Assembly: GCA_964504715.1 (NCBI GenBank)
Contig: CAZDEP010000006.1
Span: 4,748-68,747, forward strand
DNA length: 64,000 nucleotides
Source of the DNA: an uncultured Candidatus Saccharibacteria bacterium
GTDB taxonomy: Bacteria > Patescibacteriota > Doudnabacteria > UBA920
Reading direction: 5' to 3'
This document shows positions 2-59,751 of the stretch, one piece after another. How positions within the stretch are numbered: the first letter of the stretch is position 1; the number at the start of each line of letters is the position of its first letter. The notes under the pieces are model-generated. The model saw only the letters and a program-made list of their open reading frames with translations. It was not told the origin of the DNA and did no database searches. Made by a program: the position numbers and the translations under genes.

Positions 2-157
2 GAGGAAAAATGTTTGGCATTTGCACAGGAAAACGGGCTTTATAAAGTCGAAGCAGGCCTGCCTAAAGGTTGGTATCCAAAACCCGAGGAAGTAAATTGG
101 CAAAGGATAAAAAGAGCCGTTATTCTTTTTCAAAAGCGTGCTGATATCCGAGAATGA
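2..157 (+). CDS. 3' end of upstream gene, partial, product unknown
   Basis: Open frame entering from the window edge (...GLPKGWYPKPEEVNWQRIKRAVILFQKRADIRE*); no recognisable motif. Confidence 0.3.
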   Translation, partial: EEKCLAFAQENGLYKVEAGLPKGWYPKPEEVNWQRIKRAVILFQKRADIRE

Positions 158-1069: not shown

Positions 1070-2335
1070 ATGAATAACAACTTGTCAGGCCCAATTCCGG
1101 AAGGCGGCGGCTCCACCAGGGGTGCATCAAAGAAAGTTTGGGCAATTTTTACATTCATCCTCATAATTGCAAGCTACAATTTGGGCCACAAAGCCGGCGA
1201 AAAAGGTTTTGTTTTAGAACCCAAAGAATTTAAGGTAATAAGCCGGAATGACGCGCCGCAGGCGGTAAACTATGGGCTTTTGTGGGACGCGATTAAAGTC
1301 GTCCAGGATAAATATATAGACAAAAAGCCCACGGATTTGGAATTCTTGTACGGAGCCGCCCGCGGCGCCGTGGCCTCCACCGGCGACCCTTACACTTCTT
1401 TTTTCCCGCCCAAGGAACTGCAAAGTTTTAAGACGGATTTGGCCGGGGAGTTTGACGGCATTGGGGCGGAAATTGGCAAAAAGGACGGGAATATTGTTGT
1501 TGTTGCCCCTTTGGAAGATTCGCCCGCGCAAAAGGCGGGGCTTAAAGCTCAGGATATTGTTTACAAGGTGGACGGGCAGGTAGTTTTAGACTGGACAGTG
1601 GAAGACGCAGTATCAAAAATCCGCGGTAAAAAAGGTACACAGGTAACTTTAACTCTGGTTCGGCAGGGCAAGAGCGAGCCGTTTGACGTAGTAATCACGC
1701 GCGACAAAATTGAAATCAAAAGCGTAAAATGGCAATTTAAGGAAGTCGACAGCAACGGCGTTAAAAAAACCGTTGCGGTTTTAAGCATCTCCAAATTCGG
1801 TGACGATACGGAAGGGCTGTTTGCAAAAGCGGTAAACGAAATCTTGAGCCGTAAAGTAGACGGCATAATTGTAGATTTGCGGAACAACCCGGGCGGATAT
1901 TTGCAGACTTCGGTTGAATTGGCCTCCGAATGGGTAAAACAGGGAGATGTGGTTGTGACCGAAGCCAGAAGCTCGGGGGAAAACCAGGTTTATAAAGCTT
2001 CAGGCAATAACCGGTTGGCTTCTATTCCCACCGTTATCCTTATAAATGGCGGCAGCGCCTCGGCATCGGAAATTTTTTCCGGCGCTTTGCACGACCACAG
2101 TTTGGCAAAGCTGGTGGGTGAAAAATCATTCGGCAAAGGCAGCGTGCAGGAACTGGTGGAATTGCCCGAAGGCGGCGCGGTAAAGGTTACCATTGCCAAA
2201 TGGATTACCCCCGGCGGCAAGAATTTAAACAAAGACGGCTTGGTCCCCGACGTGGAAGTAAAGTTTACCGACCAGGATTTAGCGGCGGGCAAGGACCCGC
2301 AAATGGAGAAAGCTTTGGAAGAAATAACCAAATAG
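1070..2335 (+). CDS. ctpA: Carboxyl-terminal processing protease (S41 peptidase with PDZ domain)
   Basis: PDZ segment (GIGAEIGKKDGNIVVVAPLEDSPAQKAGLKAQDIV), S41 catalytic motifs (DLRNNPGGYL, GSASASEIF) and an N-terminal membrane anchor. Confidence 0.85.
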   Translation: MNNNLSGPIPEGGGSTRGASKKVWAIFTFILIIASYNLGHKAGEKGFVLEPKEFKVISRNDAPQAVNYGLLWDAIKVVQDKYIDKKPTDLEFLYGAARGAVASTGDPYTSFFPPKELQSFKTDLAGEFDGIGAEIGKKDGNIVVVAPLEDSPAQKAGLKAQDIVYKVDGQVVLDWTVEDAVSKIRGKKGTQVTLTLVRQGKSEPFDVVITRDKIEIKSVKWQFKEVDSNGVKKTVAVLSISKFGDDTEGLFAKAVNEILSRKVDGIIVDLRNNPGGYLQTSVELASEWVKQGDVVVTEARSSGENQVYKASGNNRLASIPTVILINGGSASASEIFSGALHDHSLAKLVGEKSFGKGSVQELVELPEGGAVKVTIAKWITPGGKNLNKDGLVPDVEVKFTDQDLAAGKDPQMEKALEEITK

Positions 2336-2411
2336 ATCACAAATACACGAATACCACCAATATCACTAATCTGATATTTGTGCAATTTGTGCAATTTGTG
2401 CATTAGTGATC
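2336..2411. repeat. Imperfect inverted repeat built from tandem 9-bp CACNAAT units (locus A)
   Basis: Left arm atcacaaat acacgaata ccaccaata tcactaat; right arm atttgtgca atttgtgca atttgtgca ttagtgatc. Arms pair at the conserved cac/aat positions of every unit. Confidence 0.8.
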
Positions 2412-2413
2412 TT

Positions 2414-4201
2414 ATGAAAATAACAGCGCAAGAGCTTAGGGAAAAATTTCTTAATTTCTTTAAGTCAAAAAAACACGCCATCATCCCTTCGGCTTCTTTA
2501 GTGCCTTCAGGAGACGCTTCGGTTTTGTTTACTACTGCTGGCATGCATCCGCTGGTGCCGTTTTTGCTTGGCCAGGAGCATCCGGCAGGGAAACGCGTAG
2601 CCAACGTCCAAAAGTGCATAAGAACAGGCGATATAGACGAAGTGGGGGACGCAACCCATCTGACTTTTTTTGAAATGATGGGCAATTGGAGCTTTGGCGA
2701 TTATTTTAAAAAAGAAGCGATTGAGTGGAGCTTTGAATTCTTGACCTCCCCTGAGTATTTAGGTTTGCCTTTGGAGCGTCTCGCTATAACCTGTTTTGCG
2801 GGCGACGAAGATGCGCCAAGGGACGAAGAATCATCCGCAATCTGGAAAGCTTTGGGTGTGCCGGAACACCGAATTAGCTTTTTGCCGAAGGAAAAAAATT
2901 GGTGGATAGCCGGCGGCAGCGGACCATGCGGCCCTGACACCGAAATGCATTACTGGATAGACGATTCCACGCCTGCGCCCAAGGAATACGACGTTAACGA
3001 ATCGCGCTGGGTGGAAATTTGGAACGATGTCTTCATGCAGTATGAAAAAAAACCCACCGGCGAATTGGTGCCGTTAAAGCAGCAAAATGTGGATACGGGC
3101 ATGGGCTTAGACAGGGTTTTGGCCGTGTTGAACGGCCAGACTTCGGTTTACGATACTGACTTGTTTAAGCCAATGTGGGAGGTAATAGGTTTGGGCAATG
3201 AAATACTGTCAAACGACGAAATAAAAAAAGCCCGGATTATTTTGGACCATATCCGCGCCGCTGTGTTTATTGTAGGGGACGGCATTGAGCCTTCCAACAA
3301 GGACCGCGGCTATGTTTTAAGACGGCTTTTAAGGCGCGCTATGGTTATGGCCAGGCTTTTGAATTTGCAGTCAACCTGGCTTAAGGCATTGGTGGGGCAG
3401 GTGATATTTACCTATTCATCGCCATATACAGAGCTACGCGATAACAATGAAAAGATTTTCAATGTAATTGAAAATGAGTATGGTAAGTTTAATACAACAC
3501 TGGAAAAAGGTTTGAAGGAGTTTGCCAGGATAAGTAAGCAGTACGCAGAGGACAGCAAGCAGTTGAATGGTAAAGATGCGTTTGATTTGTATCAAACTTA
3601 CGGTTTCCCGTGGGAATTGACCAAAGAATTGGCTGAGGCTGCGGGGCAAAAAATTGACAAGGCCCAGTTTGAAGAAGAATTTAAAAAGCACCAGGACTTG
3701 TCCAGGACAGCCAGCGCCGGGCAGTTTAAAGGCGGTTTGGCCTCTCATAGTGAAAAGATTGTCAGACTCCATACTGCCACGCATTTAATGAACGCGGCCT
3801 TAAGGCAGGTGCTGGGGGAAAATATTTGGCAAAAGGGGAGTAACATTACCGAAGAGAGGACTCGTTTTGATTTTACCCACGACAAAAAAATGACGTCTGA
3901 GGAAGTTGCGGCCGTGGAAGCTTTGGTTAACGATTGGGTGGCAAGGGACTTAAAAGTCAAACGGGAAATGATGCCCCAGGAGGCCGCGCGAGAGCTTGGA
4001 GCCATCGGCGTGTTTGGTGAAAAATACTCAGACACCGTTTCTATTTATACCGTTTTTGACGAAAAAACCGGGGAAGTCATCTCCCGCGAGTTTTGCGGCG
4101 GCCCTCACGTAGAACATACCGGCGTAATCGGCCAGTTTAAAATCCAAAAGGAAGAGGCTTCTTCCGCAGGCATTAGAAGAATTAAAGCAACAATTATATA
4201 A
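2414..4201 (+). CDS. alaS: Alanine--tRNA ligase, short form lacking the C-terminal C-Ala domain
   Basis: Class II AlaRS catalytic core (FTTAGMHPLVPF, FFEMMGNWSFGDYFK) and editing-domain HxxxH (HTATHLMNAA ... CGGPHVEHTG). The protein is about 596 aa versus about 870 aa for typical AlaRS. ATG at 2414 inside track ORF 2378..4201. Confidence 0.85.
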   Translation: MKITAQELREKFLNFFKSKKHAIIPSASLVPSGDASVLFTTAGMHPLVPFLLGQEHPAGKRVANVQKCIRTGDIDEVGDATHLTFFEMMGNWSFGDYFKKEAIEWSFEFLTSPEYLGLPLERLAITCFAGDEDAPRDEESSAIWKALGVPEHRISFLPKEKNWWIAGGSGPCGPDTEMHYWIDDSTPAPKEYDVNESRWVEIWNDVFMQYEKKPTGELVPLKQQNVDTGMGLDRVLAVLNGQTSVYDTDLFKPMWEVIGLGNEILSNDEIKKARIILDHIRAAVFIVGDGIEPSNKDRGYVLRRLLRRAMVMARLLNLQSTWLKALVGQVIFTYSSPYTELRDNNEKIFNVIENEYGKFNTTLEKGLKEFARISKQYAEDSKQLNGKDAFDLYQTYGFPWELTKELAEAAGQKIDKAQFEEEFKKHQDLSRTASAGQFKGGLASHSEKIVRLHTATHLMNAALRQVLGENIWQKGSNITEERTRFDFTHDKKMTSEEVAAVEALVNDWVARDLKVKREMMPQEAARELGAIGVFGEKYSDTVSIYTVFDEKTGEVISREFCGGPHVEHTGVIGQFKIQKEEASSAGIRRIKATII

Positions 4202-4202
4202 T

Positions 4203-4589
4203 ATGGACGAAAGATTAGAACAATGGAAAGGGGAATATGGCGCGGGCCACAGCAAAGAATTTTTAAAGCGCGCCTATATTACTATTGACTCCCAGGCGCG
4301 GTCGCTTAGGATTCACCCCGAATATGTTTTAAAGGCCCTTGAGGGTTTGACCTTAAAACTGGACCCAACTATGCCTGAAAGCGAACCGGGGGATCTGGTG
4401 TATAAGGGAAACTATGCGGATATAATCCGCGCAAAGTCTCCGGACACTTACAGGGTACAAAGAAAAGATTTTTTTGACGCAGTGAAAAAACACTGTCCGG
4501 AAATTGAGCCGTATTTTGCCAAATTTATTATGCCCGACATAGATGTAATAGTATTTAATAAAGACGCAATACAAAGTATTGTCGATTAG
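4203..4589 (+). CDS. Hypothetical protein
   Basis: 128-aa ORF tightly packed between alaS and pgi; no recognisable motif. Confidence 0.4.
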   Translation: MDERLEQWKGEYGAGHSKEFLKRAYITIDSQARSLRIHPEYVLKALEGLTLKLDPTMPESEPGDLVYKGNYADIIRAKSPDTYRVQRKDFFDAVKKHCPEIEPYFAKFIMPDIDVIVFNKDAIQSIVD

Positions 4590-13534: not shown

Positions 13535-13950
13535 GCTCTAAGCAAGCTCATAAGCCGAATTCTGTTTCTTCCGCCAAAGGCGGATCGCCGAAATTAAATA
13601 AATAATCTTGGCGAAATAATCATCTCTCTGCCCATTCGATTGCTCGGAAGGGTCAAGCAGCCTACCAAATTTGGCCTTGCACTCAAGTAAGGATTTAGCC
13701 GTTTCACCCGCGATATTTCTATCACGGCTCACCCTATGCCGTATATCTTCCTTTTCGGGAAAATTCGGGTATAGGGTGTCTTTAGCCTTTCGGCCAAAGA
13801 CGTTTCTGTTCGCACCTCGAGGATTACTCCAGACGGGCGTTACCCGCTACTAATTTTGAAAACTCTATAGAGGTTCTCAAAGGAGTGTTCGGACTTTCCT
13901 CCCAGCCCTTTGAATAGAGCTGGGCGATTATTCGACTTGCTTAGAGCCAG
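13535..13950 (-). ncRNA. rnpB: RNase P RNA (bacterial type A)
   Basis: The minus-strand read has a P1 pairing (gctctaagcaag ... cttgcttagagc) and a P3 hairpin. The universally conserved P4 strands are present: GGAGGAAAGTCCGAAC at the 5' end and ACAGAATTCGGCTTA at the 3' end. It also carries GGGTAACGCC, GTGCGAACAGAAAC, AGGGTGAAACGGC and TGCAAGGCCAAAT. Confidence 0.8.
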
Positions 13951-25695: not shown

Positions 25696-25771
25696 GGGGA
25701 CGTAGTTTAGTTGGTTAGAACGCCGGCCTAAAAAACCGGAAAGGCAGGTTCGAATCCTGTTGTCCCCGCCA
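25696..25771 (+). tRNA. tRNA, isotype unresolved (anticodon loop CUAAAAA; apparent anticodon AAA)
   Basis: Cloverleaf: acceptor GGGGACG pairs with TGTCCCC (one G-U pair), D-arm with GG, T-arm GCAGG-TTCGAAT-CCTGT, encoded CCA, short variable loop. The anticodon stem has a C-A mismatch and the loop is A-rich. Confidence 0.55.
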
Positions 25772-38311: not shown

Positions 38312-39649
38312 ATGGGTAACTTCAATTCAATATTTCCAGATTTTCAAATAATGTTAGGTTATACCTACCGTTTTATTTTTGTATATTACGGGTGGGCGGT
38401 TTTTGTTATTGGGATTATGTATATGCTTTGGCGCTCGTATCTTATGGAAATCCAGCACCAATATGTGCATACCAATAAGTTCATTTTTTTCCAGATAAAA
38501 GTGCCTAAAGACAATTTGGTGAGCACGCTTGCGGTGGAAACCATATTTGCCCAGCTGCATTCGCTGCACGTCGGTAAGACTTTCACGGAAAAATACATAG
38601 AGGGACACGTACAGCTTTGGTATTCGCTGGAAATTATTAGCATGGGCGGCAAAGTTTCTTTTATTATCCAACTGCCTGAACGCATGCGGCACGTAGTGGA
38701 ATCGGCCTTTTATGCGCATTATCCGCAGGCAGAAATCACCGAAGTCAGCGATTACATGGAAAATTTCACTTATGATCCTGAAGATAAAGACAATCCTTAT
38801 GAAATATTCGGCACCGAATGGAAACTAAACGACAGCGAAGTAATCCCAATTAAAACCTATAAAGACTTTGAGCATCCGGCTGCGGAAGAAACGATTATAG
38901 ATCCTTTGGCCAATTTTTTTGAAGGGCTTTCCAAAATGGATCCCCACGAATTTTTTGGGGTACAAATTTTAATTTCGCCGAGGGCGGACGACGAATGGAA
39001 ACCTTTGGGCGACGCTAAAATTAAGGAGCTGATAGGCGAAGATGTCCCTCACACAGCCAGCTTTAAGAGTTTTCTTATGTCCCCGGCGGATAAATTTGCC
39101 AAATTCAGTTATAAAGAAACCCTGTTCGGCGGCCACGGGCATGCCGCGGGCCCTGAGAACAAGCCTAAAAACAACTGGATGAATATGACCGAAAGTGAAA
39201 AGGAGAGGGTATCCTTAATTGAAAAGAAAATCGGCAAACCCGGATACAAAACCAAAATAAGATTTTTGTATGTGGCGCCCAAGGACAAATTTGATGCCAC
39301 AAAAAAGTCAATCCTGACGGGCGCCTACCGCCCTTTGGGCAGCGTGATGACAAACAAAATCAGGCCGGATGTGGCCAACACATGGACTTCAGTAGATTAT
39401 GTTCTCTCAAAACCCCTCGAAAAGCCTTACTTGGAATGGCTGCTTAATTACAAAAAGCGAAACGTTTTTAAAGGCTATAAAGACCGTGACACCCACATTG
39501 GTTTGCCTATGTTCATTTTAAATATTGAAGAATTGGCTACCCTTTACCATTTCCCCATCACCACCAAAACTTCTACCGTTCCGAGTAATATTGAGCGCAC
39601 GGAAAGCAAAAAATCCCAGCCGCCCGTTAATTTGCCGATCCTTGAATGA
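38312..39649 (+). CDS. Hypothetical single-pass membrane protein (445 aa), partner of the downstream ATPase
   Basis: N-terminal TM helix FIFVYYGWAVFVIGIMYMLW followed by a roughly 400-aa soluble domain; no recognisable catalytic motif. Confidence 0.5.
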   Translation: MGNFNSIFPDFQIMLGYTYRFIFVYYGWAVFVIGIMYMLWRSYLMEIQHQYVHTNKFIFFQIKVPKDNLVSTLAVETIFAQLHSLHVGKTFTEKYIEGHVQLWYSLEIISMGGKVSFIIQLPERMRHVVESAFYAHYPQAEITEVSDYMENFTYDPEDKDNPYEIFGTEWKLNDSEVIPIKTYKDFEHPAAEETIIDPLANFFEGLSKMDPHEFFGVQILISPRADDEWKPLGDAKIKELIGEDVPHTASFKSFLMSPADKFAKFSYKETLFGGHGHAAGPENKPKNNWMNMTESEKERVSLIEKKIGKPGYKTKIRFLYVAPKDKFDATKKSILTGAYRPLGSVMTNKIRPDVANTWTSVDYVLSKPLEKPYLEWLLNYKKRNVFKGYKDRDTHIGLPMFILNIEELATLYHFPITTKTSTVPSNIERTESKKSQPPVNLPILE

Positions 39650-39753: not shown

Positions 39754-41559
39754 ATGGATACCAAAGACCAAATAACCATATTTGCGCGTACCAACTTCCG
39801 GAACAAGGAAGTGCCTTTTGGCATAAAAACCGACGACCGCCGCAGGCATATGTACCTAATCGGTAAAACCGGCATGGGCAAAACCTCGTTAATGGAAAAC
39901 ATGGTCATCCAGGATATAAAAAATGGCCATGGTGTGTGCTTTATTGACCCGCACGGGGATTCTGTCCAAAGGATTTTAGATTCCGTACCCTCTTCCAGGG
40001 TAAATGACGTAATTTACTTTAACCCCGCGGACCTGCAATTTCCTATTGCCTTTAACATCCTCGAGGCCGTAGAAACCGAATATAAGCACTTGGTTGCTTC
40101 GGGCCTAATGGGCGTTTTTACGAAAATTTGGGCGAATGTGTGGTCTGCCAGGATGGAATACATTTTAAACAACACTGTGTTGGCGCTTTTGGAAAGCCCG
40201 GGCAATACGCTTTTGGGCATTACCCGTATGTATGTGGACAAAAAGTACCGAAAGAAAATTGTCGACAACGTAAAAGACCCGGTTGTTAAAACCTTTTGGA
40301 CCGACGAATACGCCAACTATAACGAAAAATACCGGACTGAGGCCATAGCCCCTATCCAAAACAAAGTTGGGCAATTTTTGTCTTCGGCCATAGTTAGGAA
40401 TATCGTAGGCCAGCCAAAAAGCACCATAGATTTGAGGGAGATAATGGACAATAAAAAAATCTTAATTGTCGATATTTCCAAAGGCAAGGTGGGTGAGGAC
40501 AATGCCGCCCTTTTGGGCGCCATGTTAATTACCAAACTGCAGCTGGCAGCCCTTTCGCGAGCCGACATACCCGAACGTGACCGCAAAGACTTCTATTTGT
40601 ACGTGGACGAGTTCCAAAATTTTGCCACCGACAGTTTTGCGACCATTTTAAGCGAGGCCAGAAAATACCGCCTTAACTTAATTATCGGCCACCAATACAT
40701 TGCCCAGCTGGAAAATGACAAAAATACCAAAGTCAGGGACGCAATTTTCGGTAACGTGGGCACTATGGTCATTTTTCGTATCGGCGCGGCGGATGCGGAA
40801 TTCCTGGAAACCGAATTCGATCCAATTTTTACGCCTAACGACCTCGTAAACTTGCCTAAATACAACATAATTCTGAAGCTTATGATAAATGGCGTGGCTT
40901 CGGACCCTTTTAGCGCCGTAACCTTGCCGCCGAACCCCGAGTTTATATCCGGCAATTTGGAAAAAGTCGTAAAAGTTTCGCGCGAACGTTACGCCAACCC
41001 CGTGGCTTTTGTAGAAGAAAAAATTGCCCGCTGGATGGATTCGGATTACCACAAAGAAGCGGCAATTTTGATAGGAAAAAATCTGGAAACCGAAGAGGAA
41101 AGCGAACAGGAAGGGGAGGGCGAAAGCAAAAATAACCAACCTGAAGTTGCGCCCCAGCCACCGCCAAAACCCCCCGCCCCGGTCTCACCGCCCGTCGTCC
41201 CCGAGCAAAATCGGCCCGAACAAAACAGGGATAAAACAGAATCTCAGCCGGCAAAGGCGCCCTCCAAACCCAAAGAGCAATTCAATCCGCAGCAAAAAAA
41301 GGACCACCAGAGGCCTTTTAGGGAAAAGGACCATGACCGCAGACCTCAAAACAAGCAGAAAAAAGAGCACCCAATTTGGCAAAAGGTTGCCGGGCTGGAA
41401 GCGGAAAAGGCCAAGGAACAATTGAAAGCCCTGGATAAAACTTTAGAGGACCTGGGTAAAAATTTAAGTTCGGATTCAGGCCCAGTCCAAAGCCCCGCTC
41501 TACCCCCTCCGCCCCAAAAGATAGTCCTGCGGCCCGGGGAATCTCATAGCTTAGAATGA
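39754..41559 (+). CDS. VirD4/TraD/TrwB-like (type IV coupling-protein-type) P-loop ATPase lacking a TM anchor, with a disordered Pro/Gln-rich tail
   Basis: Walker A YLIGKTGMGKTS then CFIDPHGD. Walker B and the sensor region: LYVDEFQNFAT ... SEARKYRLNLIIGHQYIAQL ... IFGNVGTMVIFRIG, which resembles the T4CP DEF...Q..Q signature. The roughly 150-aa C-terminal tail is rich in E/P/Q/K. Confidence 0.6.
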   Translation: MDTKDQITIFARTNFRNKEVPFGIKTDDRRRHMYLIGKTGMGKTSLMENMVIQDIKNGHGVCFIDPHGDSVQRILDSVPSSRVNDVIYFNPADLQFPIAFNILEAVETEYKHLVASGLMGVFTKIWANVWSARMEYILNNTVLALLESPGNTLLGITRMYVDKKYRKKIVDNVKDPVVKTFWTDEYANYNEKYRTEAIAPIQNKVGQFLSSAIVRNIVGQPKSTIDLREIMDNKKILIVDISKGKVGEDNAALLGAMLITKLQLAALSRADIPERDRKDFYLYVDEFQNFATDSFATILSEARKYRLNLIIGHQYIAQLENDKNTKVRDAIFGNVGTMVIFRIGAADAEFLETEFDPIFTPNDLVNLPKYNIILKLMINGVASDPFSAVTLPPNPEFISGNLEKVVKVSRERYANPVAFVEEKIARWMDSDYHKEAAILIGKNLETEEESEQEGEGESKNNQPEVAPQPPPKPPAPVSPPVVPEQNRPEQNRDKTESQPAKAPSKPKEQFNPQQKKDHQRPFREKDHDRRPQNKQKKEHPIWQKVAGLEAEKAKEQLKALDKTLEDLGKNLSSDSGPVQSPALPPPPQKIVLRPGESHSLE

Positions 41560-54078: not shown

Positions 54079-54474
54079 ATGACCCTTCATAGCAATTTGC
54101 TTTACATTGTATCCATAATTGGCCTTGTAGATACAATATACCTTTCCTACCACGCCATAACCAAAACCGACGTAGCCTGCTGGTTTTTCCCGGCAGAGTG
54201 GTGCAAAAAAGTCCAGTACAGCAAATACAGCCGCACGCTCGGCATACCCAACCCATACTTAGGCCTTTTAATGTATGTGGCCATTATACTTCTAACTTAT
54301 TTTACGGGTCTCGGACAGGTTAGTTCTTGGATTGTGCCTGCCATAGTAGCATTTGGATTTGCCTTTTCCATGTATTTTACATTCATACAAGCCTTTGTGC
54401 TGAGGGCTTTTTGCACCTGGTGCGTGGTTTCGGCCATAAACTTTACTATTATGTTTATTTCGCTTTTTAAATAA
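54079..54474 (+). CDS. Vitamin K epoxide reductase (VKOR)-like membrane thiol oxidoreductase
   Basis: Four TM helices, loop cysteines (VACWFFPAEWC) and the CxxC active site (CTWC). Confidence 0.6.
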   Translation: MTLHSNLLYIVSIIGLVDTIYLSYHAITKTDVACWFFPAEWCKKVQYSKYSRTLGIPNPYLGLLMYVAIILLTYFTGLGQVSSWIVPAIVAFGFAFSMYFTFIQAFVLRAFCTWCVVSAINFTIMFISLFK

Positions 54475-55516: not shown

Positions 55517-56005
55517 ATGTTTAAATTTAACTTACATCCCGGGGAAAAAGTCGTACAAACTTACCGCCAGGCGGAAATTATTTTGGTGCGTCCGGTTTTA
55601 ATAGTTTTCATTTTAATTTACGCGCCATGGGCTTTTTTAATCAAGTATGACCTTATTCGGCAAAGCACCCGCTGGCTGTTTTTTTGGACGGCTTTGGTGG
55701 TGTTATATGCGCTTTACAAATACCTCCTGTGGCTTATAAACGCTTATATTGTAACTGACAAGCGGCTTATTTCCGTGCATTATTTAAGCCTGGTCCACAA
55801 GGTAGTTTTGGAAACACCTTTGGACAGGATACAAAATATAAGTTTTGAAACCAAAGGCCTGTGGCGCTCCCTTTTAAAAGTTGGTAATGTGGTAGTACAG
55901 GTCGCTTCTTTAAACCAGCCGATGGTCTTAAAAAACCTTAAAAATCCGGATTCCGTTAAAGATCTCCTCTGGAAAATCCACACCCGGCCGCTTAACCGCA
56001 TATAA
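55517..56005 (+). CDS. bPH_2 (YdbS/YdbT-like) membrane-flanked PH-domain protein
   Basis: HPGEKVV ... two TM helices ... TDKRLISV ... GNVVVQVA pattern. Confidence 0.5.
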   Translation: MFKFNLHPGEKVVQTYRQAEIILVRPVLIVFILIYAPWAFLIKYDLIRQSTRWLFFWTALVVLYALYKYLLWLINAYIVTDKRLISVHYLSLVHKVVLETPLDRIQNISFETKGLWRSLLKVGNVVVQVASLNQPMVLKNLKNPDSVKDLLWKIHTRPLNRI

Positions 56006-56006
56006 A

Positions 56007-56381
56007 ATGAAAATCGCTTGGACATCCAAATGGGTAATTTTTGGACTTGTGATTCTCACAATTTTTTTTGCTGAGCAAAAATACCGGCAATTCCGTTTGC
56101 AGGCAAAAATTGAAACGGAAAAAGTCAGCCTCCAAAAGGAGCTCCAGGGATTGGAGGGGAGAAATTCCGAGCTCCAGCGTACACTCGGCTATTTGGACTC
56201 CGATACCTACAAAGAACTCATTGCCAAACAGCAGCTAAACTTGCAAAAAAATGGCGAATTGGCCTACAGCTTTTCCGAAAACCAGGCTCCGCCGGATACG
56301 GGCAATGCGCAGCAAAACTTAAGCGGACTTAGCAATTTCCAAAAATGGGCAAACTATTTTTTAAATAAACCCAAACAATAA
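56007..56381 (+). CDS. Septum formation initiator (FtsB/DivIC-like) protein
   Basis: N-terminal TM plus coiled coil (LQKELQGLEGRNSELQRTLGYL). Confidence 0.5.
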   Translation: MKIAWTSKWVIFGLVILTIFFAEQKYRQFRLQAKIETEKVSLQKELQGLEGRNSELQRTLGYLDSDTYKELIAKQQLNLQKNGELAYSFSENQAPPDTGNAQQNLSGLSNFQKWANYFLNKPKQ

Positions 56382-57209
56382 ATGACAAAAAATAACCATA
56401 CATCCTTTAAACACATACTGCTGTGGGCCTGTGGCCCGGTGGTTTTTTTAATTGCGTTCGGCTACTGGCTTAAAGCAGCGCCGTTTTCCGGTATAAAAAA
56501 AGCGGTAATGTTGGCTATTCCCGTCCCCATGGCCAGGGTTAATTCCCATATTATTTACAGCACCGAATATATAAATAGATTTAACGATTACTCCGCTCTT
56601 AAAAACGCCGGCATAAATTTGTCCGCCGCGCCAAAAGACGCCGCGCTGCAGAATTTAATTTATGAGAGTCGGCTGGATGAATTGGCGAGGGCTGAAAAGG
56701 CCAAATTAAAACCCGCTTCCGATTTCATTGACTTAAACGCGGAAGAGCTTAAAAAGAGTCAGCTGATTAAACGGGCCGCCGAAGCAGATGCGAAAAAATC
56801 CGCACTTAAATTCTGGTTTTATTCGCAAAAAACGCTCAACTCCGGGGCGTGGGAAAAGGCGGAGAAAATAATAAGCCAGGCCAAAGACGGGGCGGATTTT
56901 GGCACCCTGGCCAAAACTTACAGCGATGACCGGCAATCCTTGATGTTGGAAGGGGACTTGGGTCCGCAAAATCCGGAAGACATGCTCTTTGAAATAAGGC
57001 AGCCGCTGGCAGCCTTAAAATCCGGAGAAGTGGCGATTATCCCAAGCAGGTTGGGCCTGCATGTTATTCAGGTTTACAAAAAAGAAAATTCTGAAAATGG
57101 CAAGGATATGCTATACTTAAAACAAATCTTCCTCAAGGGTTCGGACTTCGAAACTTGGGTTTTAGAGGAAACAAAAAATTATCAAGTCAGCCAATGGCTG
57201 GCCATATAA
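56382..57209 (+). CDS. PpiC-type peptidyl-prolyl cis-trans isomerase (parvulin; SurA/PrsA-like)
   Basis: Parvulin domain GADFGTLAKTYSDDRQSLMLEGDLGPQNPEDMLFEIRQPL...GLHVIQV; N-terminal membrane anchor. Confidence 0.8.
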   Translation: MTKNNHTSFKHILLWACGPVVFLIAFGYWLKAAPFSGIKKAVMLAIPVPMARVNSHIIYSTEYINRFNDYSALKNAGINLSAAPKDAALQNLIYESRLDELARAEKAKLKPASDFIDLNAEELKKSQLIKRAAEADAKKSALKFWFYSQKTLNSGAWEKAEKIISQAKDGADFGTLAKTYSDDRQSLMLEGDLGPQNPEDMLFEIRQPLAALKSGEVAIIPSRLGLHVIQVYKKENSENGKDMLYLKQIFLKGSDFETWVLEETKNYQVSQWLAI

Positions 57210-57218
57210 AAAAATAAA

Positions 57219-59003
57219 ATGAACCAAGACATAATCAATTACATAAAAGAAGGCAGGCAGCATAACCTGGCGGATATTGAAATTAAGCAAAATTTGCTGA
57301 ACGTCGGCTGGGATGCCGGGACCGTGGAGGAAAGCTTTGCGCATTTAAAGGCGCAGGAAAACCGTTCGCCCGTCAACAGGGACGAAGACATAAAACCGGA
57401 AAGCCCCGCGGGCAGCGGCCCAAACTTGAATTTCCATTTAAGCCAGCATATGCAGGAGCAAAAACCGCAAGCCAATGTGCAGCCCGCTGCAGCGTTGCCG
57501 GCCATAGGTTTGGGCGGGAGCCCGCAAAAAAGCGGCAGCCGAATGGCAAAAATTTTGGGCGGGGTCATTGCGGCCGTAATTTTGCTTGCCGGCGCGGGCG
57601 CGGCGGCCTATTTTTATGTTTACCAGAACCCTGAAAGGGTGTGGAAAAAATTCAGCTCAACGGATCAGGACAAAACCTTCAGCGGAAACCTGAAAATTTC
57701 TTACAAAGACACGGGCGCTATAACCCCCGAAGATTCTTTGGGTATGACGCTTAAAGATATCAGCTTGGATTTAACCAGCAAGGTCTATAGCGACATAAAA
57801 GCGGACAGCCCGCAAAGCAGCGCGGAAATGTCCTACTCTTTTTCCAGCGGAAACACGAGTTTTTCCACCGGTTTTGAATACCGCCTGATTGGCAAAAAAC
57901 TCTATATGAACGTCGGCAGCAACCCGTTTTTGGTAAATATGTTTGCCCAGCTCGGAAAGGGGAAGCAAATAAATTGGATAGTTTTGGACATTGCGGAGCT
58001 TGAAAAAAAGGCGGATCAGGAAAACTCGGAAAAAGCCAACCAACTGAGGCAGGCGTTTAACGACCAGCTGTTTGGCGAGATCCAAAAAACCTGGAACGAC
58101 GCCAGTTTTGTAAAAATGGACAAATACCTCGGCCGTGAAAAAGTTAACAACAAAAACACTTTGCATTTTGCCAATACGCTCGACAAACAGGCCATTAAAA
58201 ACACTTTTGGTGAAATTGTCGACCGTTTGGTAAAAGCCGCCAAAGATTCCGGGGAAAACGTGGACGACTCAACAGTTAATACGGTAAAAACCACTGTAAA
58301 TGCCCTGGTAGACAAGCTCGAAGTCAAGCAGTTTGAAACATGGATAGGGGTAACCGATTTTAAAATATATAAAGTCAGCATAAAAACCAGCGCGCCTTCG
58401 GTCGTTTCGACCATAAAAACCGCATTCCAAGGGCCGCAGGAATCTTCGCGCGACGCAAAACGTCTGTCGGACGTCAGGCAAATGGCTTCGGCTCTGGAAC
58501 TATACTTTAACGATAAAAACCGATACCCGGCGTCAAAAGACGGCAAGCCGGTGGGATTATCCCCATCTTACATTGGCGAATTTCCCAATTCGCCCACGCC
58601 CGCGGACGGAAACTGCACCGACTATTACAACACTTACTGGTATGAAACCTCGACCGATGGCTCCACATACCAACTGACTTTCTGCCTAGGCAAAAATACC
58701 GGCGGTTACACTTCGGGCATTATGAAGCTCTCCCCCCGGGGGATCGAGGAAGTTGCGGAATGCCCCAGTACGCCCGAAAATTGCTACAAGAATGGCAAGC
58801 CTGGGTCCAATGCAGAAGTTGATGTCGCGGATATAGAGAAAAGCATAAAAGAAAAAGTGGAAAGCATTAGTTTTGACGCTGCCTTCGAAATTACGGCTGA
58901 CTACAGCGACTACGGAGTCAAAAAAGAAGTTACCGCGCCTGAAGGGGCTTTTGACTTAATCGAACTTTTAGACAGCAGCGGTGAACAACTGCTTTCAAAC
59001 TAA
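57219..59003 (+). CDS. Large membrane protein with a C-terminal type-IV-pilin-like globular domain
   Basis: TM helix (ILGGVIAAVILLAGAGAAAYF). C-terminal RDAKRLSDVRQMASALELYFNDKNRYP ... C...C core matches the pilin/pseudopilin head motif. Confidence 0.55.
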   Translation: MNQDIINYIKEGRQHNLADIEIKQNLLNVGWDAGTVEESFAHLKAQENRSPVNRDEDIKPESPAGSGPNLNFHLSQHMQEQKPQANVQPAAALPAIGLGGSPQKSGSRMAKILGGVIAAVILLAGAGAAAYFYVYQNPERVWKKFSSTDQDKTFSGNLKISYKDTGAITPEDSLGMTLKDISLDLTSKVYSDIKADSPQSSAEMSYSFSSGNTSFSTGFEYRLIGKKLYMNVGSNPFLVNMFAQLGKGKQINWIVLDIAELEKKADQENSEKANQLRQAFNDQLFGEIQKTWNDASFVKMDKYLGREKVNNKNTLHFANTLDKQAIKNTFGEIVDRLVKAAKDSGENVDDSTVNTVKTTVNALVDKLEVKQFETWIGVTDFKIYKVSIKTSAPSVVSTIKTAFQGPQESSRDAKRLSDVRQMASALELYFNDKNRYPASKDGKPVGLSPSYIGEFPNSPTPADGNCTDYYNTYWYETSTDGSTYQLTFCLGKNTGGYTSGIMKLSPRGIEEVAECPSTPENCYKNGKPGSNAEVDVADIEKSIKEKVESISFDAAFEITADYSDYGVKKEVTAPEGAFDLIELLDSSGEQLLSN

Positions 59004-59008
59004 TTTTT

Positions 59009-59416
59009 ATGATAAAGGGCGTTGGGCAAAAAGGATTTATTTTACCGGGAGTGGAAGGCCTAATTATGATAGGCGGGCTTATGGTTTCAGTAACCCTTCT
59101 TAGCTTAAATTCGGCCCGAATGAAGTCGCGAGATGCCAAACGGATGGCGGACACCAGGCAAATTGCTGCGGCTTTGGAATTGTATTATAACGACCGGCAA
59201 GCCTATCCCGGAAGTTTGAACGAACTCACCCCAAATTATATTGGCATTCTGCCCACTGCACCAAAGCCCCAGGATGGGACATGCACAGCCGAACAAAATG
59301 AGTATAAATACACAAATATGGGCAAAGAAAAATACGAATTCACTTTTTGTCTGGGCAACATAACTAGCGGGTATCAGGCCGGGCCTAGGACCCTAAGCGA
59401 AGCAGGCATAAAATAA
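59009..59416 (+). CDS. Type IV pilin/pseudopilin-like protein with a degenerate prepilin leader
   Basis: KGFILPGVEGLIMIGGLMVSV (G-F but no Glu5) then SRDAKRMADTRQIAAALELYYNDRQAYP and paired Cys; paralogous to the C-terminus of the upstream gene. Confidence 0.6.
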   Translation: MIKGVGQKGFILPGVEGLIMIGGLMVSVTLLSLNSARMKSRDAKRMADTRQIAAALELYYNDRQAYPGSLNELTPNYIGILPTAPKPQDGTCTAEQNEYKYTNMGKEKYEFTFCLGNITSGYQAGPRTLSEAGIK

Positions 59417-59479
59417 CCACTACATATTTTTAAAAACGGGACTGTTTTCTTTTGGAAATGGTTCCGTTCTTTTTATTTT

Positions 59480-59740
59480 ACGCCGGAGTAGCTATTCTAA
59501 GAGCCCCAGAGCAGCCCCGTGGACCTTGCAGGCGCAAGCGCGCTTGCCGCTTTCGTAGCGGCGTGTTTGACCCTAGACGCCTTAAGGTTCGCGTTTACTT
59601 TCGCGATGTTGTCCTTAAGGGGTTTTAACTTCGCTTATTATGCGCGCGCTACGACGGAAGTTCGAGCGGTGTAGCGTGGCCTAACAGCTGAGCAGTCCAT
59701 AAATGGGCACGCTACCTTTATTGCGGTGCTAGTTTTTGGT
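59480..59740. ncRNA. GC-rich, highly self-complementary intergenic region; candidate structured RNA of unknown family
   Basis: About 58% GC in an AT-rich genome. Dyads include gcaagcgcgcttgc, gccgc-tttcgta-gcggc, ccttaagg[tcgcg-tttacttt-cgcga]ccttaagg and cgctacgacgg-aagttcgag-cggtgtagcg. No ORF. Confidence 0.3.
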
Positions 59741-59751
59741 ATAATAGCCGT

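What the first reader, a model, noticed from the sequence alone, without database searches (positions are those of the whole stretch)
57219..59416. Tandem paralogous type-IV-pilin-like head domains: one fused to a large membrane protein, one with a leader lacking Glu5
The segments 58440-58700 and 59120-59400 encode the same fold signature: RDAKR(L/M)(S/A)D(V/T)RQ(M/I)A(S/A)ALELY(F/Y)ND(K/R)..YP, then two cysteines around FCLG. This signature is typical of Patescibacteria pilin and pseudopilin heads.

The upstream copy is the C-terminal roughly 180 aa of a 594-aa protein that has an unrelated N-terminal region and an internal TM helix. The downstream 135-aa protein has a prepilin-like start, KGFILPGVEGL-hydrophobic. 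It lacks the conserved Glu at position +5 and places a Pro in the helix, so it may not be processed or assembled like a major pilin.

The pair sits in a block of division and envelope genes (FtsB-like, parvulin). This suggests a structural or adhesive role, for example minor pilins or cell-surface attachment.
Basis: partly seen in the sequence, partly recalled or inferred. Interest (0 to 1): 0.5.

Follow-up and report, generated by a model that had tools for sequence, protein, structure and literature searches.

The report
Pilin heads built into an envelope protein
Two related pilin-type head domains are real, but they belong to a conserved membrane-anchored, lipid-carrier-like envelope protein of Doudnabacteria-type ultrasmall bacteria, whose second head has here become a separate small gene with its own altered pilin-style membrane anchor, so it is probably not a pilus subunit.

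Summary
ORF A (57219-59003, 594 aa) and ORF B (59009-59416, 135 aa) share a pilin-type head (45% identity, E 1e-29).

Many homologues are about 690 aa with a second head fused at the C-terminus. A+B is collinear with them. B's head classifies as that second head (21-34 bits better than on free pilins) and shares its charged surface chemistry.

B keeps a basic leader, an invariant Gly and a Glu, but it fails the prepilin models that a canonical relative passes. Its odd N-terminus is more conserved than its head.

Pilus machinery exists in sister genomes, always at another locus.

Best reading: A/B is a two-piece envelope complex carrying exapted pilin heads. B is a membrane-anchored module, not a filament subunit. 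The biochemical function (lipid or glycolipid handling linked to division and envelope growth) is inferred, not shown.

The parts
55517..56005 (+). Operon gene 1: small membrane protein with a bacterial PH domain (bPH_2)
   Evidence: Pfam PF03703, E 6e-7. It lies 1 nt upstream of the next gene. It is syntenic in nearly all related loci.
56007..56381 (+). Operon gene 2: DivIC/FtsB-like septum-formation initiator
   Evidence: Pfam PF04977, 32 bits against a cut-off of 28.9. Conserved immediately upstream of the PPIase and A in ~40 loci.
56382..57209 (+). Operon gene 3: PPIC-type (parvulin/PrsA-like) peptidyl-prolyl isomerase
   Evidence: Pfam PF13616 (E 2e-14) and PF00639. It ends 9 nt before the start of A. 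Syntenic.
57219..59003 (+). Protein A (594 aa): bitopic membrane protein with an LprG/LolA-like ectodomain, one pilin-derived head and a core tail
   Evidence: ORF. More than 120 full-length homologues at 25-85% identity. AlphaFold model with mean pLDDT 83.9.
57219..57359 (+). A residues 1-47: cytoplasmic three-helix domain (invariant Y8, I22, K23, W31)
57540..57626 (+). A residues 108-136: single transmembrane helix, preceded by a disordered linker (residues 55-106)
   Evidence: Model helix 108-136. The most hydrophobic 19-residue window starts at residue 112.
57675..58400 (+). A residues 153-394: LprG/LppX/LolA-like half-barrel ectodomain
58401..58751 (+). A residues 395-511: pilin-derived head 1 (alpha1-C helix plus beta-sheet, Cys466-Cys489, no alpha1-N)
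58761..58784 (+). A residues 515-522: invariant Cys-x6-Cys loop (CPSTPENC) that follows head 1 and is part of the inserted cassette
   Evidence: C515 and C522 are invariant in 53 sequences. The loop is absent from headless relatives.
58824..59000 (+). A residues 536-594: core tail (..SISFDAAFEI..DYG..APEGAFDLI..). It equals the inter-head linker of two-head homologues and the C-terminus of headless ones.
   Evidence: Alignments.
59009..59416 (+). Protein B (135 aa): detached head 2 of the A family, with its own modified class-III-like signal anchor
   Evidence: ORF starting 5 nt after A's stop codon, in a different reading frame. Concatenated A+B is collinear with two-head homologues. The head scores 144.7 bits on the fused-head-2 HMM, 120.1 on the free-pilin HMM and 110.9 on the head-1 HMM.
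59009..59035 (+). B residues 1-9: basic leader MIKGVGQKG, ending in the invariant Gly9 (a putative prepilin-peptidase site Gly9|Phe10)
   Evidence: G9 is invariant and F10 nearly invariant across 40 family members. The role of Gly-1 is taken from PMC4471445. Cleavage itself was not tested.
59036..59113 (+). B residues 10-35: remodelled alpha1-N, FILPGVEGLIMIGGLMVSVTLLSLNS (Pro+4, Gly+5, Glu+7), the likely membrane anchor
   Evidence: There are 0-2 differences in 27 residues among orthologues, against 17-35 in 100 for the rest of the protein. Codon comparison shows synonymous and conservative changes. There is no PF07963 or TIGR02532 hit. Mean hydropathy is 1.97, against 3.08 for a canonical pilin.
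59114..59413 (+). B residues 36-135: alpha1-C helix and globular head (Cys92-Cys114)
   Evidence: Model with pLDDT 81, helix 15-63 and strands 100-130. Foldseek: PilE probability 0.96, gonococcal pilin 0.91, EpsG 0.82. The family profile hits GspG at E 2.5e-11 and soluble EpsG heads at E 3e-4.
59435..59468 (+). Terminator-like hairpin (15-bp stem plus T-run) 19 nt after B's stop codon; the probable end of the bPH-DivIC-PPIase-A-B operon
   Evidence: Consensus scan. The five genes are separated by only 0-9 nt.

Best explanation
A and B together are the two-gene form of one conserved extracytoplasmic envelope protein of Doudnabacteria-type Patescibacteria.

Shown: A is a bitopic membrane protein. 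It has a small cytoplasmic three-helix domain, a disordered linker, one TM helix, an LprG/LppX/LolA-fold ectodomain, and a core C-terminal tail. A pilin globular head without the hydrophobic alpha1-N helix has been inserted as a cassette before that tail. In many species a second such head is fused to the C-terminus. In this window's lineage the second head is encoded by a separate gene, B, which starts 5 nt after A's stop codon. B carries a pilin-style N-terminus with a basic leader, an invariant Gly and a hydrophobic helix containing a Glu. This N-terminus no longer fits the prepilin consensus, yet it is more conserved than the head.

Inferred: A is oriented N-in/C-out. The heads are disulfide-stabilised outside the cell. 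B is inserted through its class-III-like signal anchor, possibly trimmed by PilD at Gly9|Phe10. B then stays in the membrane next to A instead of polymerising, which reproduces non-covalently the arrangement that other species obtain by fusion. The LprG/LolA-like cavity probably binds acyl chains of a membrane lipid, glycolipid or lipoprotein. The pilin-derived heads probably act as rigid adaptor or binding modules; head 1 has an invariant aromatic patch, N471/Y473/W474/Y475. The complex probably works with the co-transcribed FtsB/DivIC-like protein and PrsA-like foldase in envelope growth and division.

Confidence by component: anatomy and orthology about 0.85-0.9; B as a non-filament membrane-anchored module about 0.65; a lipid-handling or envelope-biogenesis function about 0.35.
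For: Paralogy of the two heads: E 1e-29.

A family: more than 120 full-length homologues, with one-head (~590 aa) and two-head (~690 aa) architectures. A+B is collinear with the two-head forms; the only extra segment is A's last 13 residues, the stop codon and B's N-terminal 35 residues.

Locus survey: 14 fused, 18 one-head and 6 split loci, all in the synteny bPH-DivIC-PPIase-A-(B)-MurI-ATP synthase. B starts 1-11 nt after A in the other split loci (L005, L006, L009-L011) and 5 nt after A in this window.

B is head 2: the group HMMs separate by 21-34 bits, and control free pilins go the opposite way. Charged residues make up 16% of B heads, 13-14% of embedded heads and 5% of free pilins, p = 4e-7.

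Head 1 is a cassette insertion relative to headless relatives. Of 107 further representatives, 53 have no head.

B's N-terminus: Gly-1 is invariant. PF07963 and TIGR02532 fail for four B-type proteins while the control P0008 passes. There are 0-2 differences in 27 residues against 17-35 in 100 elsewhere, with synonymous or conservative codon changes.

Pilus clusters including PilD occur in genomes with every locus state, but at other loci.

The tight spacing of five genes and a terminator-like hairpin after B suggest one operon. Invariant Cys pairs and a VKOR gene nearby fit an extracytoplasmic location. Pilin disulfides made by a VKOR system in CPR bacteria are discussed in PMC6744442.
Against: There is no experimental or expression data. 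Lipid binding, topology, PilD cleavage and A-B contact are all untested.

The LprG/LolA assignment is by fold only. There is no Pfam hit, and the SCO4651 match is below its cut-off.

Retention of the invariant Gly and of a Glu in B's anchor is more than a plain signal anchor would need. It leaves room for some interaction with the pilus machinery.

Bootstrap support for the head tree and the A tree is poor. The direction of change, fission of a fused gene or retention of a pre-fusion state, is therefore unresolved.

The rest of this genome could not be examined for pil genes.
Confidence: 0.6

Rival explanations
1. B is a genuine minor pilin, for example an E5-less tip or priming subunit. It would be cleaved by PilD and incorporated at low copy number into the type IV pilus. 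A would be its membrane partner or an adhesin.
For: B has a pilin fold and clear homology to prepilins. It has an invariant Gly at -1 and a retained acidic residue in the anchor. Glu5 is dispensable for processing, and Glu5 mutants can co-assemble with wild-type pilin (PMC4471445). Sister genomes with the same split locus have full PilM/O/B/T/C/D clusters. From general knowledge, E5-less minor (pseudo)pilins such as GspK exist.
Against: B's head is the orthologue of a domain that in most species is fused, without alpha1-N, to a bitopic protein and so cannot enter a filament. Its composition matches embedded heads, not filament pilins. Pro+4/Gly+5 break the start of the helix, and the Glu sits at +3, +7 or +8 in different orthologues, which is incompatible with a fixed Glu5-Phe1 geometry. 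B is never in the pil cluster and is always 1-11 nt after A in the division/envelope operon. It fails PF07963 and TIGR02532.
Confidence: 0.15
2. The pilin heads link the LprG/LolA-like carrier physically to the type IV pilus machinery or to the membrane pool of pilins. They could do this by docking on PilMNO/PilC or on pilin subunits. Pilus retraction would then be coupled to uptake or hand-over of lipids taken from a host cell.
For: The ectodomain has a lipid-carrier fold. The heads derive from the same family as the organism's own pilins. B retains Gly-1 and Glu. In one genome a second A paralogue lies ~0.9 kb from a divergent PilB/C/M-like cluster. CPR bacteria depend on hosts, and type IV pili are central to their interactions (PMC6744442).
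Against: Nothing was observed here that bears directly on coupling. The canonical A locus is never next to pil genes. The L034 adjacency is convergent and occurs once. The operon partners point to division and envelope growth, not to pili.
Confidence: 0.1
3. The split is not biological. It would be either a sequencing or assembly frameshift in a two-head gene, or else B is a decaying pilin pseudogene.
For: A+B sums to 729 aa, close to the fused forms. B's leader is non-canonical.
Against: The same A and B proteins occur in three independent assemblies. Five other species representatives have the same split, with B starting 1-11 nt after A. The split form contains ~43 extra residues, including a hydrophobic helix, that no frameshift could create. 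B's N-terminus is under stronger purifying selection than its head, and its codons show synonymous changes.
Confidence: 0.02

Closest known systems
Canonical type IVa-like prepilins of Patescibacteria (PF07963 + GspG-like head; e.g. P0008, P0018)
   Same: They share the head family: RDAKR..ALELYYND..YP, the Cys pair around FCLG, and 56-59% identity to B. They also share the alpha1-C sequence LLSLNSAR.KSRDAKR, the basic leader and the Gly at -1.
   Different: Canonical members have GFTLIELLVVIAIIG with Glu5, pass PF07963/TIGR02532, and sit in PilM-O-B-T-C-pilin-PilD clusters. Their heads are Ala/Gly/Ser/Thr-rich with ~5% charged residues. B fails the leader models, has Glu at +7, has 16% charged residues, and is encoded after A in a division/envelope operon. 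A's head has no alpha1-N at all.
T2SS major pseudopilin GspG/EpsG/PulG (PF08334, TIGR01710)
   Same: These are the best sequence-profile matches among solved structures for the alpha1-C and head region (5wda, 3fu1, 4lw9, 3gn9, 29jd). Pfam and NCBIfam give weak hits.
   Different: The scores are far below the family cut-offs (13-21 bits against 21 and 88.85). No T2SS context is present. Patescibacteria are not known to have an outer membrane (PMC6744442).
Mycobacterial LprG / LppX / LprF lipoproteins and the wider LolA/LolB/RseB superfamily
   Different: A is anchored by an N-terminal TM helix with a cytoplasmic domain, not by a lipobox. It has no significant sequence-family membership. It carries one or two pilin-derived heads, which no described LprG/LolA protein is known to have. 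Literature searches found no such report.
Modular and dual-fold pilins (Streptococcus sanguinis PilB/PilC modular pilins; Clostridioides difficile PilJ with a second, alpha1-N-less pilin-like domain)
   Same: These are precedents for pilin folds combined with other modules, and for a pilin-like domain lacking alpha1-N inside a larger protein. This rests on general knowledge; S. sanguinis minor-pilin work is listed (PMC9934059).
   Different: In those proteins a bona fide class III signal peptide and pilin domain come first, and the protein is a filament subunit. Here the scaffold is a non-pilin bitopic protein and the heads are internal or C-terminal passengers.
Sulfolobus bindosome (sugar-binding proteins with class III signal peptides)
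   Same: It is a precedent for class III signal peptides on surface proteins that are not known to form filaments (PMC4471445). This is analogous to B using a pilin-type anchor for surface display.
   Different: It is archaeal, with unrelated passenger domains. Its localisation depends on a dedicated Tff system. No such dependence is known for B.

Membership tests
Type IV pilin / class III signal peptide protein (applied to B) | Hydrophilic leader ending in a conserved Gly (-1), the prepilin peptidase site | tested here: met
   The leader is MIKGVGQKG|F. Gly9 is invariant and Phe10 nearly invariant in 40 aligned family members, including all B-type proteins. The definition is from PMC4471445. 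Cleavage itself was not tested.
Type IV pilin / class III signal peptide protein (applied to B) | Glu at position +5 of the mature protein | tested here: not met
   Position +5 is Gly and the Glu is at +7. In orthologues the Glu is at +3 (GFIEAL, PGVIEAA), +7 or +8.
Type IV pilin / class III signal peptide protein (applied to B) | Stretch of ~21 predominantly hydrophobic residues forming alpha1-N | tested here: inconclusive
   A hydrophobic segment is present (best 19-residue window 15-33, mean hydropathy 1.97). It is weaker than in a canonical relative (3.08) and is preceded by Pro13-Gly14. The model helix starts only at residue 15.
Type IV pilin / class III signal peptide protein (applied to B) | Match to the curated N-terminal models PF07963 (N_methyl) and TIGR02532 (IV_pilin_GFxxxE) | tested here: not met
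   There is no hit at E <= 1 for B, P0006, P0007 or P0017. The control P0008 scores 37.1 bits against a cut-off of 16.3. Precomputed PF07963 is absent from the closest B relatives and present in the next tier.
Type IV pilin / class III signal peptide protein (applied to B) | Lollipop fold: long alpha1 helix packed on a beta-meander head with a C-terminal disulfide | tested here: met
   The model has helix 15-63 and strands 100-130 at pLDDT 81. Top Foldseek hits are pilins and EpsG. The family profile hits solved pilins and GspG. Cys92 and Cys114 are conserved.
Type IV pilin / class III signal peptide protein (applied to B) | Polymerisation into a filament by PilB/PilC machinery | not testable with these tools
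   There are no pil genes in the 64-kb window, and the rest of the genome is unavailable. Sister genomes have the machinery at another locus. Orthology to an alpha1-N-less fused domain argues against polymerisation.
Type IV pilin / class III signal peptide protein (applied to A) | [quoted passage not shown] | tested here: not met
   The head starts at residue ~395, after a cytoplasmic domain, a TM helix and a 240-aa ectodomain. Only the alpha1-C remnant precedes RDAKR.
T2SS pseudopilin GspG (PF08334 / TIGR01710) | Score above the curated family cut-off | tested here: not met
   PF08334: A 13.7 and B 13.1 bits against a cut-off of 21. TIGR01710: B 20.9 bits against 88.85.
LolA / LprG / LppX lipid-carrier superfamily (applied to A residues 153-394) | Unclosed half-barrel fold with helices plugging a cavity | tested here: met
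LolA / LprG / LppX lipid-carrier superfamily (applied to A residues 153-394) | Sequence-family membership (e.g. PF07161 LppX_LprAFG; NCBIfam lipoprotein families) | tested here: not met
   No Pfam hit in this region other than DUF7198 at E 0.004, below its cut-off. NF053532 SCO4651 lipoprotein scores 34.3 bits against a cut-off of 65.
LolA / LprG / LppX lipid-carrier superfamily (applied to A residues 153-394) | Lipobox and N-terminal acylation (LprG/LppX) or a soluble periplasmic carrier (LolA) | tested here: not met
   A has a 107-aa cytoplasmic N-terminus and a TM helix at 108-136. There is no signal peptide or lipobox.
LolA / LprG / LppX lipid-carrier superfamily (applied to A residues 153-394) | Binding of acyl chains in the hydrophobic cavity | not testable with these tools
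Doudnabacteria-type 'TM + LprG-like + pilin head(s)' protein family (unnamed; applied to A+B) | Full-length collinear homology and conserved synteny bPH-DivIC-PPIase-A-MurI-ATP synthase | tested here: met
   More than 120 homologues cover 98-100% of A. Synteny holds in ~40 species representatives. A+B is collinear with two-head members.

The most novel reading that the evidence does not exclude
Pilin globular heads have been exapted as building blocks of a lipid-carrier-like envelope protein, and the detached head B still uses the pilin export and processing route (class-III-like anchor, PilD) without polymerising. If the heads dock on the pilus platform or on membrane-pool pilins, A/B would physically couple the type IV pilus machine to lipid or glycolipid trafficking, and possibly to host-lipid acquisition, in ultrasmall host-dependent bacteria.
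Probability: 0.1. Interest if true: 0.8.

Novelty: new variant of a known kind. Interest (0 to 1): 0.5.

Why it matters
Pilins are regarded as filament subunits whose conserved alpha1-N helix defines their biology. Here the globular head alone has been recruited, once or twice per protein, into a non-pilin membrane scaffold with a lipid-carrier fold. That scaffold is conserved across a whole candidate phylum in a division/envelope operon.

The locus also captures a domain caught between two states: fused without an anchor, or free-standing with a remodelled but strongly conserved pilin-type anchor. This gives a natural experiment on which features of a class III signal peptide are needed for membrane targeting and processing, and which for polymerisation.

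There is a practical consequence for annotation. B-like genes are being labelled PilE, PulG or 'type II secretion system protein' and would inflate pilin counts in CPR genomes. A-like genes are labelled 'hypothetical'.

The function of an LprG/LolA-like protein in bacteria thought to depend on hosts for lipids is worth testing. No long-standing question is settled by the present evidence.

Tried and rejected
- **Third word-indexed homologue search.** A search with A residues 137-400 returned a single hit and added nothing. The exhaustive representative search replaced it.
- **Head-domain NJ tree.** It nests B inside the fused second heads, but strict-bipartition bootstrap support was 12% or less for every grouping. 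I replaced that argument with group-HMM scoring.
- **Polarity of the split against the fused state.** In the midpoint-rooted A tree the split loci form one clade. With an outgroup and bootstrapping, strict monophyly of that clade was recovered in only 1% of replicates. A softer measure gave a median MRCA clade of 12 of 38 taxa, with most fused loci outside it in 58% of replicates. This only modestly favours 'fused ancestor, one fission'. Polarity is left open at about 60:40. A fission would also require regaining alpha1-N from a pilin paralogue by recombination.
- **Pseudogene or frameshift artefact.** Rejected.
- **Sec-type cleavable signal peptide for B.** Not favoured. The LNSAR segment is the conserved alpha1 of uncleaved canonical pilins.
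- **RNA gene in the 335-nt gap after B.** Rfam found nothing. The gap is a remnant of a 73-aa ORF that is intact in relatives.
- **Promoter scan.** The number of promoter-like sites was not above the shuffled expectation, so no promoter is claimed.
- **Weak G6PD hits of the A profile** and the CLIP/DUF7198 Pfam hits were treated as noise.
- **Literature searches.** Searches for a pilin head fused to a LolA/LprG-like protein in CPR bacteria found nothing.
Full report
**Observation.** A is 57219..59003 (+), 594 aa. B is 59009..59416 (+), 135 aa. BLASTP aligns A 395-510 with B 25-135 at 45% identity, E 1e-29, so the shared signature is real paralogy. Pfam gives only sub-threshold T2SSG (PF08334) hits for both proteins (13.7 and 13.1 bits, cut-off 21) and no N_methyl hit for B. 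The upstream genes are a bPH_2 membrane protein, a DivIC/FtsB-like protein and a PPIC-type rotamase. A VKOR homologue lies a little further upstream. The rest of the window is a housekeeping stretch, almost entirely on the + strand: ribosomal proteins, rpoA, mur genes, mraY, ftsW, murJ, secA, secDF, lepA and the ATP synthase. It contains no pilB, pilC, pilD, pilM or pilT and no other pilin-type head.

**What B is related to.** B has 118 homologues. Most are Patescibacteria prepilins that carry PF07963 and the canonical KGFTLIELLVVIAIIGLLASVVLLSLNSAR.KSRDAKR N-terminus, at up to 59% identity. The closest relatives lack the PF07963 hit and share non-canonical N-termini: GFILPGVEGL, GFIIFPGLEGL, GFIPIPGIEGL, GFIEALAM or PGVIEAAAM. 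In a 40-sequence alignment the Gly at -1 is invariant and Phe at +1 nearly so. A profile of the family hits solved type IV pilins and GspG (5wda, E 2.5e-11). It also hits soluble EpsG/GspG head domains at profile positions 38-120 (E ~3e-4). B's AlphaFold model (pLDDT 81) is a pilin lollipop with helix 15-63 and a small sheet. Its best Foldseek matches are PilE, gonococcal pilin, EpsG and PAK pilin, with probabilities 0.75-0.96 but weak E-values. NCBIfam gives a controlled membership test. TIGR02532 (IV_pilin_GFxxxE) scores 37 bits on the canonical relative P0008 (cut-off 16.3) and gives nothing at E <= 1 for B or three other B-type proteins.

**What A is.** A has more than 120 full-length homologues at 25-85% identity. 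All are 'hypothetical', and several are named Candidatus Doudnabacteria (lineage). The AlphaFold model built from a 53-sequence alignment is confident (mean pLDDT 83.9). It shows:
- a three-helix N-domain (residues 1-47)
- a disordered linker (55-106)
- a TM helix (108-136)
- a beta-rich domain (153-392)
- a 39-residue helix (395-433) followed by a small sheet (474-511)
- a tail

**Family architecture.** Counting head motifs shows two main forms: about 580-630 aa with one head plus a tail, and about 680-740 aa with a second head that ends the protein. Concatenated A+B aligns collinearly with the two-head forms. A's tail matches their inter-head linker and B's head matches their second head. 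The only window-specific material is A's last 13 residues, the stop codon and B's first ~35 residues. An exhaustive search with A residues 1-400 found 494 relatives. Among 107 further representatives, 53 have no pilin head, 39 have one and 15 have two. Alignment with headless members shows that head 1, together with its Cys-x6-Cys loop (about residues 403-523), is a clean cassette insertion, and that the tail belongs to the core. The ancestral scaffold is therefore TM + LprG-like domain + tail, and pilin heads are accessory.

**Locus survey.** A scan of species-representative genomes returned about 50 full-length loci. Nearly all keep the order bPH-DivIC-PPIase-A-MurI ... AtpZ-AtpB. The loci fall into three states:
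- fused, two heads: 14 loci
- one head, then MurI: 18 loci
- split, as in this window: L005, L006, L009, L010 and L011, with B starting 1-11 nt after A's stop codon

All split-state B proteins have a basic leader, a Gly and a nearby Glu, but none has the canonical FTLIELLVV. The fused forms keep only '..SLN.AR.KSRDAKR', so they lack alpha1-N. Other combinations also occur, such as tail plus head 2 without head 1.

**Is B head 2 or an ordinary pilin?** An NJ tree nests the B-type heads inside the fused second heads, with free canonical pilins as sister group. Bootstrap support for strict groupings is poor, 12% or less, so I did not rely on it. Separate HMMs for fused head 2, head 1 and free canonical heads give a clear answer. 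All ten B-type heads score 21-34 bits higher on the head-2 model than on the free-pilin model, while three control free pilins behave the opposite way. Composition agrees. B heads have 16% charged and 32% Ala/Gly/Ser/Thr residues, like embedded heads (13-14% and 36%). Free pilins have 5% and 52% (p = 4e-7). B is therefore the orthologue of head 2.

**Is B's odd N-terminus functional?** Among four orthologues, residues 9-35 differ at 0-2 of 27 positions, while the rest of the protein differs at 17-35 of 100. Codon comparison across three loci shows synonymous or conservative changes and strict conservation of GFILPGVE. It also shows that the 116-aa entry P0005 is a mis-called start. The segment is therefore translated and under stronger constraint than the head, so it is not decaying. 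The same proteins occur in three independent assemblies. A and B are in different reading frames, separated by TAA-TTTTT-ATG. An assembly artefact is excluded.

**Pilus machinery.** The window has none. L066 comes from the same genome as split locus L011. It encodes PilM, PilO, PilB, PilT, PilC, a canonical N_methyl pilin, a Wzy_C/TPR protein and a PilD peptidase. Homologous clusters flank canonical pilins in more than 20 genomes of the lineage, covering the split, fused and one-head states, and always at a locus different from A. This agrees with the reported ubiquity of type IV pili in CPR bacteria (PMC6744442). But the presence of machinery does not make B a pilus subunit.

**Mechanism.**
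- *Shown:* the anatomy, the orthology, the selection on B's N-terminus and the synteny.
- *From established knowledge:* the Gly at -1 is the critical determinant for prepilin peptidase. Glu5 is dispensable for cleavage but needed for homopolymer assembly. Alpha1-N is the main assembly interface (PMC4471445).
- *Inferred:* A is N-in/C-out. The heads and the Cys loop are oxidised outside the cell, and VKOR lies in the neighbourhood. B inserts through its class-III-like anchor, may be trimmed at Gly9|Phe10, stays in the membrane and sits beside A. This reproduces the fused arrangement. The variable position of the Glu (+3, +7 or +8), the Pro-Gly at +4/+5, and the fact that head 2 works without any alpha1-N in most species all argue against filament incorporation.
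- *Function:* the LprG/LolA fold suggests binding of acyl chains of a lipid, glycolipid or lipoprotein at the outer face of the membrane. The tight five-gene arrangement (gaps of 0-9 nt) with a terminator-like hairpin at 59435-59468 links the pair to an FtsB/DivIC-like protein and a PrsA-like foldase. I commit to an envelope-biogenesis or division-associated lipid-handling role at about 0.35 probability.

**Evolutionary direction.** Rooted on headless outgroups, split loci fall in a restricted subclade (median 12 of 38 taxa). Most fused loci lie outside it in 58% of bootstrap replicates. This modestly favours a fused ancestor with one fission. In that case B's alpha1-N-like segment must have been regained from a pilin paralogue by recombination at the highly conserved LNSAR.KSRDAKR region. 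The alternative is that the split form is ancestral and one or more deletions fused the genes. This is unresolved.

**Comparison and novelty.** The heads belong to the type IV pilin/GspG superfamily by homology and fold. However, B fails defining features of a class III signal peptide (Glu5 and the curated models), and A has none of them. A's ectodomain works like, but is not a sequence-family member of, LprG/LppX/LolA. Precedents exist for pilin folds combined with other modules (modular pilins and PilJ, from general knowledge) and for class III signal peptides on non-filament surface proteins (the bindosome). I found no description of alpha1-N-less pilin heads embedded in a LolA/LprG-like bitopic protein. 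I rate it a new variant of a known kind, with interest 0.5.

Noticed in passing
window 25696-25771 (+): ARAGORN calls this tRNA as tRNA-Phe with anticodon AAA, and Rfam gives a tRNA match of 62 bits. The anticodon-loop region reads CCGGCCTAAAAAACCGG. An A34 Phe tRNA is unusual for bacteria. The call might be wrong, or the loop may be atypical.
   Followed up: partly
window 59417-59751 (between B and murI): Relatives (L083, L084) encode a 73-aa hydrophobic ORF here. The window keeps only the 3' half at the DNA level, with the start and 5' part deleted, so this is a gene remnant. Two conserved hairpins are present, and a conserved ~110-nt stretch lies upstream of murI with TTGCGG-17-TATAAT. There is no Rfam family.
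   Followed up: partly
window 54079-54474 (+): A VKOR homologue (PF07884, E 2e-23) lies three genes upstream of the operon. It is conserved at that position in L007, L018 and L084. This fits disulfide formation in the extracytoplasmic pilin-type heads (PMC6744442).
   Followed up: partly
L034 5132-10775 (- strand), ~0.9 kb from a second A paralogue (2235-4241, +): In genome CAIWKW01 a second, two-head A paralogue lies outside the DivIC/MurI synteny. It sits next to a convergently oriented, divergent PilB/PilC/PilM(/N/O)-like cluster with 30-45% identity to the main pilus genes. This is a single case. It may hint at a link between the A family and type-IV-filament machinery.
   Followed up: partly
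L019 1931-5877; L018 11441-13096: The A family is sometimes duplicated. L019 has two tandem two-head A paralogues. L018 has a second A-like gene (N-part plus tail, no head hit) 3 kb downstream of the first.
   Followed up: no
window 39754-41559 (+) and 38312-39649 (+): A TrwB/VirD4-like coupling-protein ATPase (PF10412, PF12696) sits in the middle of housekeeping genes, preceded by a 445-aa ORF with no Pfam hit. It may belong to the monoderm-type T4SS described for Patescibacteria (PMC12102498, listed).
   Followed up: no
window 13535-13943 (-): Bacterial RNase P RNA class A, 108 bits (gathering score 100), on the minus strand in an otherwise plus-strand stretch.
   Followed up: no
window 2378-4589 (+): The alanyl-tRNA synthetase ORF is only 607 aa (tRNA-synt_2c plus tRNA_SAD). 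It is followed 1 nt later by a 128-aa ORF with no Pfam hit, which may be a split-off C-terminal domain.
   Followed up: no
P0004, P0007, P0012, P0027 (homologues of B): Public sources label B-type proteins as 'Tfp pilus assembly protein PilE' or 'type II secretory pathway pseudopilin PulG'. Given their orthology to the fused second head of the A family, these labels are probably misleading.
   Followed up: yes
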